Position numbers: made by a program. Positions 1 through 6,000 of a stretch of 64,000 bases of DNA are shown here, in pieces. Within the stretch, counting starts at the first letter, position 1; each line of letters opens with the position of its first letter. Source of the DNA: Trypanosoma brucei (taxonomy: Eukaryota); assembly GCA_000002445.1 (NCBI GenBank), contig CP000068.1, positions 192,001 through 256,000 on the forward strand, read 5' to 3'.

Positions 1-3000
1 TCTCTCTATTTTCTTCGAACATAGGCAACAATTCAATGTTTTAGGGCATATTGAAGGAAACAAACGAGGTCCGTAAATCGGCGAAATTTACCTGCCCATT
101 GTCAAAAGTCACTCGAAGCTCTCCATTGTCAAACCTCGGAAAACCGTCTACATGTACCGCTGAATTTCCAAAAGGGGGACAATAGTTGAATGAAAATGTG
201 GTCCGACCGCACTGTTTCACAAAAGTCCTTATTTCTTTCAAACTTATTTCCCATTCGGCATCCGATATAGTTGGAGGGGTTGTCGTTAGCATCTCTCAAA
301 ACTTACAGCGATAACTTACTTTTTAAAAAATTACTTACCCTTTTAAAAAACTTTCCTCCGTAATAGTTTTTCTATGCATATATAAGAAAGGAAAGAACGA
401 ATAACAAAGAAAGTGGTAAAGATGGACCATTCCTTTCGCAAGCTCCCATTACAAAAGAAAAAAGGCAGAGCAGGCATTTGTGGATTATGCAAGAGCGTCC
501 GAGTCAGTGGATCGTGTGTAAATCACTGTGGCGCTAAGTCGCTGCAAGTATATTCTCACCTAAAGAGGTGAATGGGACGGTTCCTGTACAGTTCAAACCC
601 CAGAGTGAGGACAAACAAGACCTTGTCAAACGCTAGTTCCCCAACCTGCGGGGTGCCGCAACGATCCGCTGCCTGGATCAATGCTGCTCATATTCAGAAT
701 GGACCTCCTCAGCCTAAAGATAAGTAAAGCATCAGGAATTAGAAACAGCTTCCTTGCAAACAACCTAATCATCATACGCGGAGACACGGGTCTAAAAAGC
801 ATCTGTAAAATGTCACAACAAGGAATCGGCTGCAATGCGCGGTGGCCCATAAAACCATGTGATGACGTGTGTGTGAATGTGTGCTGGAAAGAAAGTGCAC
901 ATGCCTCGGGATCATGCATGCTAGTACCTTTTAATTCCGTGAAAACAGCAAGAAGATAAAGGAAAACAAAAGATGTGGGGCCGCCAGATCTAACACTTCG
1001 GTCATGTGAGGAAGCAGAGAGGCACAAAAAGGGCAACGGGGGGTTCACAAAAGGGACCACCAAAGTTGCAGGTCATCTCATCCATTTGTCCCAAAGCGTC
1101 CCCGCCACGGGGAGCAATACGAGACAAAGATCTGCTTTACCTGCATATTTCGCCTACGTTATGCAATCGCGCCGCGGCTCAGTGGCTAACCTAACGATAA
1201 AAGCGCATCAATGGGAAAGGAAAGGAGCATGGAAAGCACCCCAAACAGGGAGCAAAGCACAGACAACGTACAGAGGGAACTACAGCCGCCATATATCTAT
1301 GGTAAAATGTTTGAACAAAGGCAATCACTATGGGAACGCATGCCGCGACGTGTCTCGGGTAACCTCCAAGGCGGTTCTTTAGAAGCGAAAAGGAGACCTG
1401 TCTGAGGAAGCGGTGGAGAGCAAAGAAAGGAAAAAGATTAAATTGGCCCTTTCGTCTACCGACCGTACCGACTGGGTGGGCGGTTGAGGAAACGCAACGA
1501 CACGGGTCGCTCAAAGCGCGGCAGGAAGAAAATTTCTCCGAAAACCCACAGGACAAATCACCAGGAAAATAAGGCATGGAGGTGGAATGTCAAATGTGCC
1601 CGAGGAAGTTGCAGAGAAAGGGGGAATTGGCAGGCTACAAGTGCGACAAACCGAATCACCGTGTCAAAAACCGATGACATGGTCATGCGAACAAGCTGAA
1701 AACAAAGTTCCCCATTCACCGCAATAAATGCTGTTCGCACTGTGTAACAAGACACGGCCGAAGGAGTACCAGCGCCAAATTGTAAAAAAAAAAAAGAAGC
1801 GCATAAACAATTAAAGGGCTGATTATGAAAACGAAGCGAAAGGAAAAAGAGAATGGCAAAAAGGAAGACAGCAAAAACATTGAACTTCCTGAGGGATCAG
1901 GGCAGGCATTGCAAAAGTCACTGACTGAAACGCAGAGTAGAACACGATACGAAAGAGGATGGTGCGATTATTAGCGTGTTCATATGTCGAAACCCATTCT
2001 TTACACAGGGAACAAACACTTGGTGGAAGTTGGAATGAAAAAAGATACAAATGATGAAGCATCTCTGGAATCAAAGACAGCTCCAAAGACCATCCAACGC
2101 TCGCAGGACAAAATGCGTGCAACAAAGTCACATCACTGAACTCATGCAGTGGAAGGGCGAATGCAAAATAGGAAAAAAAGCACAACACTGTAAAATGTGG
2201 GTACTACTCACCTTCCCCAAAACCGTCACAACACCCCTCCCCAGGAAGCGCTCCGTAGAGAAAGCGGTCGAAAATGCCGCAAACAGATGGTTGCCGTTTC
2301 GCATGCAACTGGCACGTTTTCTATGCAAGCTATTTAACCAAAGGGGTTTGAGCTAAACACAGAGGAGCGCCAACAGACTCAAGATAACTGTCAAAGGAAT
2401 TCACACTGAAACGACCATGGGTTGGGAAAAAGGAAAAGGGGGACTACTTCGCCGACGGCCAAGCCTACCTACATTCCGCCACGCCATACTTTGAAGAACC
2501 CGGCGTGTGAGTGCTGCTTGCGGCCGAGGGCACACAACTCATTGGTGCAAAAGGTGACAGTCACGCGGCGGTGTGGAACCGCAAGACTCGATCAGATACT
2601 AGGGGAATAACTTTACTGCGGCGCCATGTCGGTAAGTAGCTTTGGGCCAACAAAAAACTGGCGATAGCACCAAGTGTGCGTGCCAACATCGGGAGCTCAC
2701 ACCTGATGCGTCACCCCTCAAGGGAAGTGCGGGGCGCACCAGTGGATGTCATAGAACTTCACCGAGCAGTGATGGTCAACATCTCCTCGATATGAGTGTG
2801 TGGAACGTACGGGGTGAGCCCATTCGCCAACAGCTTCTCTGCATTCATAGACCAAATCCACACGGAGAAATTTTCTCAGGACAGCCGACGAACTCTGACG
2901 GAAGAATTGGAACTGGTGGAACGTGCACGAATTGGAGAAATGTCTGAGGTGCGGTATCCGTGTTGCAACCGCAGGGGTCGTTCCTTGAATCACAGCCACA

Positions 3001-6000
3001 CCACAACACTCAACACCTCAACTTACTAAACTCGATAAGGGGATTGCGAGGTGTCATCGCTCATTGAATGGGGGAACTGGTCGACATGCAGAGGTAGCTT
3101 CCAGGCCGCATGACAAATGAAGGGTGTTTCGTGCCGTTCTGAAAGCACAAGGCTCCGGTCCGTTGCAACTGGTGCGTCAAGAAAGTGTACGCGTCGGGGC
3201 CATTCAACCTCCTGGCGGCTATATGAGACGGTGCTCCAAAACCGACTACCGGCAGGAGAAACATTTCGTTGATCCCTACGCGCCCCGGGCAACAGATTAC
3301 TTATCCTCGCCCTTAAGGCATTCGACGTGAGTTTATGGAATGGAATCGTACCTGCTGCACGGGAGAGTTATCAATAATTTCCATACAGAAACACCCTAAG
3401 AAGGCGGAGCGTTTGGATGTCCACGAGGCGGTGAAAGCGATGAGTTGCGCGCGCAAAGCCATCGAGAACATCGTTGGTAATGGAATTGGGGACTTTATGG
3501 GGGAGGGGCCCACACTAGAACCGGGATTTCGGCCGGGTCGCCCCACGCTAAGGCTGCTTCAGCGCTTCCAGATGGCCCTTGGTCACCCGTCGCCGTCGCA
3601 CATGGGAGCGGCATTCATAGTTTACGCGAATGCCTTGGATGTCACACGGAAAGCGGCTGATGGTTTTATTTTACAGCAGAATGAAAGGAACAAAAGTTGG
3701 CAAAACACTGTTAAACAGCCGGACGCTTGCAAGAGGCATAAAGCAACTGCATCAGAGCGCACTGTGCCCCTCAGCCTCGGACTCGCAGAGCCAACTCTTG
3801 GAAGCATTTCCGCTATCACATGACGGCTTTTTTGCGGATAATTTGGCGCTATCGGCGCGATACACGAAGAGGGACCCCGAAGACCGCACACCGCAGGGCA
3901 GCCCCGGCGTTGTGATACAATGGCAGCAAAAGTGACTTATGTACGCCCGCACGCCGGTGACGAAATGCAAACTGCTCAGTTACATTGAACACTTATCGTC
4001 AATGTAACATCACGGTGGGGCTCGGGCTGGGGTTGGAAAAGTACCGAAGATGTTTTGGGACGGCGCGCTGCGCAAACACAGCGAATAGCAAGCCGCAGGG
4101 CGCTGAAAATAGAAACCGTTTGGGCGACGGCGTATCACCCAGATGAGGCGTTGCGTGCTTTACACTTCCGGTTTTTACAATTACGTGACACGTGCAGAGC
4201 TGATGTGTGGCATTAGTGCGTCTCAGAAGGTATTCGAGAGGCGACCGGAGCGGAGCGGCACAAAGACAGCCAAACCATCGAGGACGTATCGCACGCGCAC
4301 TATACAACCCCACCCGTAACTTCGTGCCGGGACGGAAGCCGCTGATCCAAACTTCTCCAACGCCTTCCTTTTCAATGCAACAGGGCCTTCCGCGGGAAGA
4401 TAAGGCCCGTGTGCGCAAACTGTCCCGGAGAGGCTTAGATCGGCGAATGGACATTCTTAAACCAGAGGTCCGGCCAGACCCTCAGCCCAAGTGAGGACGA
4501 AAAAACGATACATCAGGTCAACAAAAGCGGCGGCGCACTTGCACTGGCGGTGGGCCTGCGAAAGGCACCGAATCCCTTCTTAATTCACAAGGCGGTGCTG
4601 CCCAGCCTCTCGATATACCCGCTTTCGTTCTCCACCATGCCGGAGGCGAGCGCAGTTACCATTACTGACCCGTCCCTGCACAAATTGCGGTGGTCAGCTG
4701 TGACAATACCGGGCAGGAACAATTGCATTAGACCACAGTTTGTACTCCCCTGCTGCGGCGTGGCATTGAACGAAGGCGCGCGGCGAAATTGCGAAGAATG
4801 TCGCTGGCATGTCACAGTTGCCCGACCGGGGGTTTGCAGACACCGCGGCCTATTCGAAGCGTTTGTTGTGATCTGGGGAAATATACTCGGGGGCCCACCG
4901 GGACACATTTCACGACCAAATGCAAAGAATGGATGCGCGGGCCGACAGCGTTGGCTGGCACTGCTGGTGGTCGCCGCACAAAATCAACTCATGGGTGGCC
5001 CGTTCCACCGGTGGCAGGAACCGTAATTTCCACTGGCGACGCTTGCACCCCAACCAATCCCAACGACCACGACCTCGGTGTTAACAACCTTCTTTCACGC
5101 TGAGGGACAAAAAAGGTGTACTAATTGCGGTGCGATATGGCAAACACCGAACGAGTGCAGTGACGAATATGGCGGCGGATCTTCTGGCGTAGGCGCGTTC
5201 TTTTGAAAAATTAAATGCGGTGATGCGTCGCGTCCAGCGTATGATCCATCAGAACCCATGCAACCGCGGCCCGTACTGGCGGCTTCGCGAGTATCAACAA
5301 CAGCAAGCCTCAACACTAAACATTCAAAGGCGTCACGACGGCACCACCTTCGCAGCCACATTTGTGATACAAAGCAATCGGTTCGCGAGCTAAACAGGTC
5401 TTGAATTGAAAAGCAGGATGCAAGATGTAAAGCAATAACTACAAGACAGCGCATCTACCGCAAGAAAACATTGTTTTACCCAACAAGCTACCATGCCCCG
5501 GAGGCAACATAGCCAACACCAAACGACACCGCCATCCTGCAGAAGTTCTGCTTCTCGGGTCGCCTTGAATAACTTCAACTCACCACAAAACGACTCCAGA
5601 GCTTGACGCCACTCTTAACTACGACTATTGAAAAACAGGGTAAACAGGAACCAAAATCATACAGCACCCCCATTAACAAGAGAATAGACAGAAAAAACTA
5701 AGCAACAAACAAAAAAGTGGAAAAGTCGGCATGTCAGCAAGTCTAACATCTAGCATCGCCTCCTCACCCTCCAACAAACACACACCCAAAAAACAAAACT
5801 AGCACAAAATTTTTTTCACATCAGCAGAAAAAAAACCAAAAATACAAAATAAAGAAAAAAACAACATTTATCAGCGGTGGAGAGAACGGTACAACTAGGG
5901 AAAAAATTAAGAATTGAACAAAACACAATAAACAAACACAAAACATGCTGAAACCAGCGACAAATGGGTATGATTGTGCAACACTGTTTTTGCATAATCA

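What the first reader, a model, noticed from the sequence alone, without database searches (positions are those of the whole stretch)
2640..5200. Left-hand degenerate ingi/DIRE-like element abutting the 148-bp array
An APE-endonuclease start motif (WNVRG) lies at 2801-2815 and an RT RPIxS..D.KY motif lies about 2 kb downstream on the same strand but in different frames, consistent with a decayed non-LTR element. Its 3' portion ends where the satellite array begins, so the array may have expanded within or been inserted into the element. The same architecture recurs on the - strand at 40.5-45.2 kb.
Basis: partly seen in the sequence, partly recalled or inferred. Interest (0 to 1): 0.5.

Follow-up and report, generated by a model that had tools for sequence, protein, structure and literature searches.

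The report
Dead ingi-type retroelement beside trypanosome centromere
The region is a decayed, 5'-truncated copy of an ingi-type jumping gene (a 'DIRE') beside the chromosome 4 centromere repeat of Trypanosoma brucei, an arrangement already published, so the finding is real but ordinary.

Summary
The window is the Trypanosoma brucei chromosome 4 centromere region. It holds a canonical CIR147 array at 5977-7814.

Window 2446-5976 (+) is a degenerate ingi-related non-LTR retroelement (DIRE). It is colinear with T. brucei ingi from mid-endonuclease through linker, reverse transcriptase and RNase H, plus a weak zinc-finger match and an A-rich tail. tblastn E-values reach 2e-18, against a best of 0.03 in shuffled controls. 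DNA identity to ingi is 57-66%. There are at least five frameshifts, and the longest ORF is 162 aa.

- WNVRG (2801-2815) aligns to ingi 'VGDDT', just after the end of the endonuclease domain.
- 'RPIRS...D..KY' (4846-4884) lies just after the RNase H domain.
- The true RT is at about 3161-4297.

The real endonuclease start (RWNCAGL, with a 2A remnant) survives only in the T. b. equiperdum orthologue. It is missing from the window upstream of 2468.

The element at 40.6-45.3 kb (-) is also a DIRE, but of a different, T. vivax/T. conorhini-like type. Its homologue is a separate left element at 1-2443, not the finding region.

The array abuts the element's 3' tail. Nothing shows that it splits the element.

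Obado et al. 2007 already described DIREs flanking this array, so novelty is 'already known' and interest is low.

The parts
2446..5976 (+). L2: degenerate, 5'-truncated ingi-related retroelement (DIRE, Tbingi-like). This is the object of the finding.
   Evidence: It forms a colinear tblastn and blastn chain to T. brucei ingi copies L002 and L005. The block 2468-5981 is 97.7% identical in T. b. equiperdum chromosome 4. There are at least 5 frame changes plus in-frame stops, and the longest ORF is 162 aa.
2446..2598 (+). Remnant of the middle of the AP-endonuclease domain
   Evidence: ingi ORF A aa 184-235 matches at 44% identity over 52 aa, E=1.4e-4. Pfam places Exo_endo_phos at aa 90-211 of that ORF.
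2654..2790 (+). Remnant of the C-terminal end of the endonuclease domain, including 'SSDGQH' = ingi 'DSDHHH'
   Evidence: Smith-Waterman score is 27, against 13.1+-1.4 (max 17) in 200 shuffles. The blastn block 2654-3292 matches ingi at 58.8%, E=1e-18. The alignment is shown.
2801..2815 (+). WNVRG pentapeptide: a look-alike of the endonuclease start, not the start itself
   Evidence: In the DNA alignment it pairs with ingi GTT GGA GAC GAC ACA (VGDDT), directly after SDHHHIFFDVI. The Pfam endonuclease model ends at that point. The true ingi start is MQWNCAGL.
2854..3291 (+). Linker between endonuclease and RT
   Evidence: ingi ORF B aa 102-246 matches at 33% over 149 aa, E=9e-9. The L002 linker matches at E=1.3e-6.
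3161..4297 (+). Reverse transcriptase domain. GFRPGRPT is at about 3520, AAFIVYANALD (motif A) at about 3600 and FFADN (YxDD box) at about 3830. It contains the ORF 3335-3823.
   Evidence: tblastn gives E=1.9e-18 for the T. b. gambiense RT P0056, 5e-13 for T. grayi and 7.7e-18 for the L002 ORF. An exhaustive HMMER search of 1.84 billion proteins with ORF 3335-3820 gave, as its only genuine non-self hit, 'Tbingi protein' of T. theileri at E=6.8e-4. That protein carries RVT_1.
4538..4774 (+). RNase H domain remnant (..IRPQFVLPCCGVALNE)
   Evidence: The match to ingi RNase H is 33% over 81 aa, E=1e-5. Pfam places RNase_H at aa 98-235 of the ingi ORF.
4846..4884 (+).
   Evidence: It lies inside the blastn block 4715-4880, which matches ingi L002 8850-9014. 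That corresponds to ingi '..RDTWIPDIIAYAKRV', after the RNase H domain end.
5114..5263 (+). Probable zinc-finger region remnant (RCTNCGAIWQ.. compared with ingi KCTECDATYQ..)
   Evidence: The match is 36.5% over 52 aa at E=0.077. Alone this is at noise level, but it is on the same strand and in colinear order.
5600..5976 (+). A-rich 3' tail region of the element, ending at the array
   Evidence: The sequence is shown. AT skew is +0.24 over 4001-6000. It lies in colinear position with the A-rich 3' end of L002 (not significant alone).
5977..7814 (.). CIR147 centromeric satellite: 12.4 copies of 148 bp at 99% identity
   Evidence: TRF result. The array contains TTGACGTGAAAATAC, the CIR147 target named in PMC12975129.
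1..2443 (+). L1: 3' part of a second, different DIRE (T. vivax/T. conorhini-like RT at 452-869). It ends in GGGAAAAAGGAAAAGGGGG and is cut by the window start.
   Evidence: tblastn gives E=1e-5. The DNA is 57-60% identical to 43520-40639 on the - strand, E=5e-38 and 8e-30.
40639..45300 (-). R: DIRE of the same type as L1, in the opposite orientation. Its RT is at 43763-43069. The 5' limit is approximate.
   Evidence: tblastn gives E=1.5e-17 for T. conorhini and 3.5e-15 for T. vivax. It is colinear with L1. The - strand is A-rich.

Best explanation
[quoted passage not shown] It is closest to T. brucei ingi.

It would have arrived by target-primed reverse transcription and has since decayed. It keeps the ingi domain order in ingi register: partial AP-endonuclease, linker, reverse transcriptase, RNase H, a probable zinc-finger region and an A-rich tail. 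The sequence is broken by frameshifts, stops and deletions, so it encodes nothing functional.

In this genome the first roughly 0.5 kb are missing. That stretch holds the 5' leader, the 2A peptide and the endonuclease N-terminus. The element begins directly after the tail of another DIRE (L1).

Its A-rich 3' end abuts the CIR147 centromeric satellite of chromosome 4. It is therefore part of the retroelement-rich pericentromeric flank already described for T. brucei.

Shown: the homology, the domain order, the decay, the truncation and the conserved junction. Inferred: the insertion mechanism, the great age, and any role as pericentromeric chromatin or as an siRNA source.
For: - **Best database hit.** The best non-self biological hit of ORF 3335-3820 among 1.84 billion representative proteins is an ingi-type RT (P0003, 'Tbingi protein' of T. 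theileri, RVT_1), E=6.8e-4.
- **RT hits.** ingi-clade RT fragments hit 3374-4252 at E=1.9e-18 to 1.9e-10.
- **Colinear chain.** ORFs of two T. brucei ingi copies give a same-strand colinear chain: endonuclease 2446-2598 (1.4e-4), linker 2866-3291 (9e-9), RT 3161-3982 (7.7e-18), 4067-4297, RNase H 4538-4774 (1e-5) and zinc finger 5114-5263 (0.08). The domain labels of the reference are confirmed by Pfam.
- **DNA-level homology.** Blocks match ingi at 57-66% identity, with E=1e-18, 8e-9, 2e-11 and 4e-4.
- **Controls.** Reversed and locally shuffled windows give a best E of 0.03-0.87.
- **Orthologue.** The T. b. equiperdum orthologue (97.7% identity over 2468-5981) continues 5' into a 2A remnant and RWNCAGL, E=1.8e-15. 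This shows where the true endonuclease start lies.
- **Organism and locus.** The ORF is 99% identical to T. b. equiperdum DPX39_040068600. The array is canonical CIR147.
- **Literature.** Obado et al. 2007 report DIREs on either side of the 149-bp array on chromosome 4 (PMC1868937).
Against: - Pfam, PDB and the word-indexed homologue search detect nothing in the region's own translations. Recognition depends on lineage-specific references.
- The zinc-finger match and the matches at the 3' end are individually at noise level.
- No target-site duplication was found. No Pr77-like 5' hallmark was found in the window.
- The subfamily assignment (ingi4-like for L2, ingi6-like for L1 and R) rests on relative tblastn scores, not on a phylogeny.
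- Nothing was found in 7815-11428 that could be the 'other side' DIRE of Obado's description. Their right-hand DIRE is either R, 33 kb away, or absent from this assembly.
Confidence: 0.94

Rival explanations
1. On this view the element is near full length, its AP-endonuclease begins at WNVRG (2801) and its RT motif lies 2 kb downstream at about 4846.
For: Both peptides exist on the same strand. The ingi endonuclease start is MQWNCAGL, so W-N-x-x-G is a fair look-alike. The exact WNVRG is expected only 0.04 times per window.
Against: Sequence upstream of 2801 (2446-2598 and 2654-2790) is homologous to the middle and C-terminal parts of the endonuclease, so 2801 lies after that domain. The RT core is at 3374-3982. 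Position 4846 lies after RNase H. The true start motif RWNCAGL of this very element is seen in the T. b. equiperdum orthologue, 304 nt upstream of the point equivalent to window 2468.
Confidence: 0.02
2. The satellite array was inserted into, or expanded within, the element, so that part of the element lies on the far side of the array.
For: The array begins exactly where the element-derived sequence stops. The element is about 1 kb shorter than ingi.
Against: The A-rich tail lies left of the array. Colinear matches run to the ingi 3' region before the array. No ingi- or DIRE-like similarity is found in 7815-11428 on either strand. The missing length is explained by the 5' truncation and internal deletions. 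The L2|array junction falls at the same nucleotide in T. b. equiperdum.
Confidence: 0.07
3. The similarity is compositional or due to chance, and the region is not retroelement-derived.
For: Pfam, PDB and the word-index search are all negative. The two cited motifs are at chance level in loose form.
Against: E-values reach 1e-18 at both the protein and DNA level, with strict colinearity over about 2.8 kb. Shuffled and reversed controls give a best E of 0.03.
Confidence: 0.01
4. It is a remnant of a different trypanosome retroelement family (SLACS/CZAR, or VIPER/SIRE) rather than of the ingi clade.
For: SLACS and VIPER proteins could not be obtained for a direct comparison.
Against: The closest proteins in an exhaustive search are ingi-type. 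The DNA aligns directly to T. brucei ingi. The endonuclease/RT/RNase H order, with a weak zinc-finger match, is that of ingi. No spliced-leader RNA gene or any other Rfam family is present.
Confidence: 0.01

Closest known systems
DIREs flanking the chromosome 4 centromeric repeat of T. brucei (Obado et al. 2007, Genome Biol 8:R37, PMC1868937)
   Same: The organism, chromosome and satellite are the same. A degenerate ingi/L1Tc-related element points towards the AT-rich array of about 148 bp, between directional gene clusters.
   Different: The paper describes head-to-head DIREs on either side of a 3.5-kb array. Here the array is 1.8 kb and the left side holds two tandem DIREs of different types. 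The only opposed DIRE found is 33 kb to the right, beyond ISG, trans-sialidase, adenylate cyclase and VSG-like genes.
Tbingi (active ingi, ingi4 subclade) of T. brucei
   Same: The domain order is the same, with direct DNA and protein homology. The RT is closest to Tbingi-type proteins.
   Different: DNA identity is only 57-66%. There are many frameshifts and stops, about 0.5 kb of internal deletion, and a 5' truncation. No Pr77-like hallmark, no RIME-like ends and no target-site duplication were detected.
TbDIRE of the ingi6 subclade ('TbDIRE2', eight copies; Bringaud et al. 2011, PMC3820030)
   Same: L1 (1-2443) and R (40.6-45.3 kb) fit this description. They are extinct long elements whose RT is closest to the T. 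vivax and T. conorhini types.
   Different: The finding region itself (L2) does not resemble them. No T. vivax-type RT hits L2, and L2 shows no DNA or tblastx similarity to L1 or R.
Degenerate L1Tc and VIPER/SIRE elements in T. cruzi centromeric strand-switch regions (Obado 2007)
   Same: Dead retroelements mark the centromeric domain.
   Different: The T. cruzi domains lack a satellite array and are GC-rich. The elements belong to other subfamilies.

Membership tests
ingi-clade non-LTR retroelement / DIRE | RT domain whose nearest relatives are ingi-clade RTs | tested here: met
   An exhaustive HMMER search gives an ingi-type RT as the only genuine non-self hit. tblastn E-values reach 1.9e-18.
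ingi-clade non-LTR retroelement / DIRE | Single-strand domain order of AP-endonuclease, RT, RNase H and C2H2 zinc finger, colinear with ingi | tested here: met
   Colinear chain. Reference domains are confirmed by Pfam. The zinc-finger match alone is weak (E=0.08).
ingi-clade non-LTR retroelement / DIRE | Degenerate coding capacity (frameshifts and stops; about 5 kb when full length) | tested here: met
   There are at least 5 frame changes and several in-frame stops, and the longest ORF is 162 aa. The length here is 3.5 kb, and about 4.1 kb in the T. b. equiperdum orthologue.
ingi-clade non-LTR retroelement / DIRE | Conserved 76-79-nt 5' signature (Pr77 hallmark) | tested here: not met
   The window holds no match to the ingi 5' 78 nt: best score 12 against a shuffle maximum of 14. 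This is expected, because the copy is 5'-truncated at about 2446-2468. The T. b. equiperdum orthologue keeps the 5' region down to the 2A and endonuclease start, but its Pr77 alignment is poor.
ingi-clade non-LTR retroelement / DIRE | A-rich 3' tail | tested here: met
   Positions 5600-5976 are A-rich on the sense strand.
ingi-clade non-LTR retroelement / DIRE | Target-site duplication and the subclade-specific upstream endonuclease recognition motif | tested here: inconclusive
   No shared k-mer of 7 nt or more links the 5' junction to either edge of the array. The 5' end is truncated and abuts another element, so the upstream motif cannot be read.
Active Tbingi | Intact long ORF and high identity between copies | tested here: not met
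   Identity to ingi copies is 57-66% and there is no long ORF.
T. brucei centromeric domain (Obado 2007) | [quoted passage not shown] | tested here: met
   CIR147 array. Three DIREs. Genes lie on the - strand at 11.4-18.4 kb and on the + strand from 27 kb. Topoisomerase-II or kinetochore occupancy cannot be tested here.
SLACS/CZAR | Site-specific insertion in spliced-leader RNA genes; CRE-clade RT | tested here: not met
   No SL RNA or any other Rfam family is present in the window. The nearest RTs are ingi-type. No SLACS protein was available for a direct comparison.

The most novel reading that the evidence does not exclude
The boundary between the DIRE and the satellite may be a recombination hot spot that reshapes the centromere.

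- The CIR147 array flips orientation inside a palindrome of its unit, 17 nt from the DIRE.
- T. b. equiperdum has the whole adjacent block in the opposite orientation. The real array might therefore consist of two opposed blocks.
- The same DIRE has lost its 5' 0.5 kb and gained a different upstream neighbour in one lineage.

If these differences are real rather than assembly artefacts, pericentromeric DIREs and the palindromic satellite unit would be substrates for inversions and deletions within T. brucei.
Probability: 0.2. Interest if true: 0.35.

Novelty: already known. Interest (0 to 1): 0.12.

Why it matters
The finding confirms and refines the anatomy of a published feature: DIREs next to the T. 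brucei chromosome 4 centromeric repeat.

The practical value is corrective.
- It gives exact domain coordinates for the element.
- It shows that two plausible-looking motifs were misread.
- It shows that the annotated 'hypothetical protein' DPX39_040068600 is a fragment of a dead reverse transcriptase.
- It separates three DIREs of two subfamilies that a motif reading had merged.

It does not open a new question about centromeres or retroelements.

Tried and rejected
**Searches that found nothing**
- Pfam on the three + frames of 2401-5700, with stops masked, gave no family even at E<=10.
- PDB sequence searches with ORFs from the left and right elements gave nothing relevant.
- The word-indexed homologue search with ORF 3335-3820 found only itself.
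- A query built from remembered 2A peptides of ingi and L1Tc found no candidates. The real ingi 2A differs slightly. That search was wasted.
- Rfam and tRNA scans of the window gave nothing.
- A search for the ingi 5' hallmark in the window was at noise level.
- A k-mer check for a target-site duplication found nothing.

**Hypotheses tested and dropped**
- That the finding region and the 40.5-45.2 kb element are copies of each other. There is no DNA or tblastx similarity; the partner is window 453-2359.
- That a DIRE lies immediately right of the array, in 7815-11428. No similarity to any ingi-type protein or to L1 or R was found.
- That the T. b. equiperdum flanks outside [L2 + array] are orthologous to the window. 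They are unrelated.

**Spurious hit**
- P0002 from the exhaustive search is an internally repetitive protein with no relation to RT.

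
Full report
**Where the window comes from**

ORF 3335-3823 is 99% identical to the hypothetical protein DPX39_040068600 of Trypanosoma brucei equiperdum, whose locus tag points to chromosome 4.

Tandem Repeats Finder reports 12.4 copies of a 148-bp unit at 5977-7814, at 99% identity. The unit contains TTGACGTGAAAATAC. That is the sequence within the CIR147 centromere repeat targeted in PMC12975129, which places canonical CIR147 on chromosomes 4, 5 and 8.

The surrounding ORFs are:
- three ISG65/75-family genes on the - strand (11.4-18.4 kb);
- a trans-sialidase, a receptor-type adenylate cyclase and a VSG-domain ORF on the + strand (27-39 kb);
- core genes after that.

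Obado et al. [quoted passage not shown]

**Checking the observation**

WNVRG is encoded at 2801-2815, and RPIRSVCCDLGKY at 4846-4884. Both are on the + strand, in different frames.

In loose form both motifs are at chance frequency in the six-frame translation. WN..G occurs 4 times against 3.8 in shuffles, and RPI.[SL] 6 times against 6.0. The exact WNVRG is expected 0.04 times.

**Is there a retroelement?**

Generic tools see nothing:
- Pfam on the masked frames gave no family.
- A PDB sequence search gave nothing.
- The word-indexed homologue search found only the query itself.

An exhaustive HMMER search of 1.84 billion representative proteins with ORF 3335-3820 returned three hits. One was the query's own T. 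b. equiperdum counterpart. One was a repetitive junk protein. The third was P0003, at E=6.8e-4 and 40% identity. P0003 carries RVT_1 and is named 'Tbingi protein, partial [Trypanosoma theileri]'.

A search with P0003 as query retrieved 69 ingi-clade RT fragments from trypanosomes. tblastn of twelve of these against the window gave three significant places:
- 3374-4252 (+), E=1.9e-18 with a T. b. gambiense RT;
- 43763-43069 (-), E=1.5e-17 with T. conorhini and 3.5e-15 with T. vivax;
- 452-869 (+), E=1e-5.

Reversed and locally shuffled copies of the window gave a best E of 0.03-0.87 with the same queries.

**Anatomy of the finding region (L2)**

I fetched two T. brucei ingi copies.
- L002 has long RT, RNase H and zinc-finger ORFs.
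- L005 is a near-intact canonical ingi. Pfam labels its ORFs as follows:
  - Exo_endo_phos, starting at MQWNCAGL and preceded by the 2A peptide ..RTKMLLSGDVEENPGP;
  - Exo_endo_phos_2, ending at ..SPDSDHHHIFF;
  - RVT_1;
  - RNase_H;
  - zf-C2H2.

tblastn of these ORFs gives one same-strand colinear chain:

| Domain | Window coordinates | E-value |
|---|---|---|
| Endonuclease, middle | 2446-2598 | 1.4e-4 |
| Linker | 2866-3291 | 9e-9 |
| RT | 3161-3982 | 7.7e-18 |
| RT, C-terminal part | 4067-4297 | 0.014 |
| RNase H | 4538-4774 | 1e-5 |
| Zinc-finger region | 5114-5263 | 0.077 |

At the DNA level, relaxed blastn aligns the following blocks to the L002 copy, all colinear:

| Window block | Identity | E-value |
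|---|---|---|
| 2654-3292 | 58.8% | 1e-18 |
| 3316-3640 | 56.8% | 8e-9 |
| 3781-3942 | 66% | 2e-11 |
| 4715-4880 | 58.4% | 4e-4 |

Block-wise Smith-Waterman scores of 27-49 compare with 13+-1.4 for shuffles.

The offset between ingi and window coordinates grows by about 0.5 kb along the element, which indicates internal deletions. The high-scoring segments switch frame at least five times and contain in-frame stops. Positions 5600-5976 are A-rich. The satellite starts at 5977.

**What the two cited motifs really are**

In the nucleotide alignment of 2640-3100 with ingi (64% identity), the window's 'SSDGQHLLDMSV' pairs with ingi 'DSDHHHIFFDVI'. That is the SDH motif that closes the endonuclease domain. 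Window TGG AAC GTA CGG GGT pairs with ingi GTT GGA GAC GAC ACA (VGDDT), through a compensating 1-nt insertion and deletion.

WNVRG therefore sits just after the endonuclease domain, not at its start. It resembles the true start (WNCAG) by coincidence.

RPIRS... lies in the blastn block 4715-4880 and corresponds to ingi '..RDTWIPDIIAYAKRV', about 14 residues after the Pfam RNase H domain ends.

The genuine counterpart of the RT 'YRPVTLTS' motif is the mutated 'HEAVKAMS' near 3430. The recognisable RT boxes are GFRPGRPT (about 3520), AAFIVYANALD (about 3600) and FFADN (about 3830).

**The 5' end**

The T. b. equiperdum chromosome 4 locus L001 is 97.7% identical to window 2468-5981 and unrelated outside that block and the array. 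The breakpoint is exact at 2468.

Upstream of it, L001 continues as the same element. ingi ORF A aa 67-162 matches L001 8765-9049 at 42% identity, E=1.8e-15. That stretch includes a 2A remnant (GDVK-NPGP) and the true endonuclease start RWNCAGL.

In the window this roughly 0.5 kb is absent. Instead, 1-2443 is the 3' part of another DIRE (L1), ending in GGGAAAAAGGAAAAGGGGG. No ingi 5' hallmark is detectable anywhere in the window, and no target-site duplication was found.

**The 'recurring architecture'**

Window 453-2359 (L1, +) aligns to 43520-40639 (R, -) at 57-60% DNA identity, E=5e-38 and 8e-30. It is colinear in tblastx. L2 has no detectable similarity to either.

The RTs of R and L1 score best with T. 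vivax and T. conorhini proteins. The RT of L2 scores best with T. brucei, T. grayi and T. theileri 'Tbingi' proteins and not at all with the T. vivax ones.

Bringaud et al. 2011 (PMC3820030) describe Tbingi as ingi4 and Tvingi/Tcoingi as ingi6, with TbDIREs in both subclades. By inference, L2 is an ingi4-like DIRE and L1 and R are ingi6-like DIREs. I did not build a phylogeny.

**Array and element**

The junction between L2 and the array is at the same nucleotide in the window and in T. b. equiperdum. No ingi-like or DIRE-like sequence was found in 7815-11428. The array is therefore best read as abutting the element's 3' tail, not as splitting it. L2 has no detectable DNA similarity to the array.

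**Verdict**

The finding is a real, correctly classified, but already published feature. The supposed twin on the right belongs to another subfamily and pairs with a different left-hand element.

Noticed in passing
window 5960-6010; L001 12640-12700; L003 11596-11654: The CIR147 array changes orientation about 17 nt from the DIRE. The first bases after L2 (ATGGGTATGATTGTGCAA) are of the reverse-complement type, as in T. b. equiperdum. The window then continues in the forward orientation, while T. b. equiperdum continues with 14 reverse-complement copies up to a 100-N gap. The right junction (7814|7815) is identical and forward in T. equiperdum OVI. Either the array has two opposed blocks, or there was an inversion at the unit's palindrome, or one assembly is mis-joined.
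   Followed up: partly
window 1-2443 (+) and 40639-45300 (-): Two copies of a second DIRE type form an inverted pair at 57-60% DNA identity. They bracket about 38 kb that holds L2, the centromeric array and surface-protein genes.
   Followed up: partly
window 2468; L001 9134: The T. b. equiperdum orthologue of the DIRE keeps its 2A remnant and endonuclease N-terminus, whereas the window copy lacks them. The sequence upstream of the element is unrelated between the two assemblies, although L001 6882-7887 also holds a T. vivax-type RT remnant.
   Followed up: partly
window 3335-3823 (+): This 162-aa ORF is annotated in T. b. equiperdum as hypothetical protein DPX39_040068600. It is a fragment of the decayed reverse transcriptase, so the gene call is almost certainly spurious.
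   Followed up: yes
window 11429-18380 (-), 26970-39274 (+): Between the centromeric array and the right-hand DIRE lie three ISG65/75-family genes, a trans-sialidase, a receptor adenylate cyclase and a VSG_B-domain ORF. They are arranged divergently around 18.4-27 kb, a gene set resembling subtelomeric regions next to a centromere.
   Followed up: no
window 7815-8200: The right flank of the array is T-rich on the + strand, mirroring the A-rich left flank. No retroelement similarity was detectable there.
   Followed up: partly
L002 7043-8531 vs L004 6779-8263: Two T. brucei loci annotated with ingi-type RT ORFs share only 1.5 kb at 93% identity. Annotated 'reverse transcriptase' loci in T. brucei therefore include partial or mosaic ingi-related copies.
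   Followed up: no
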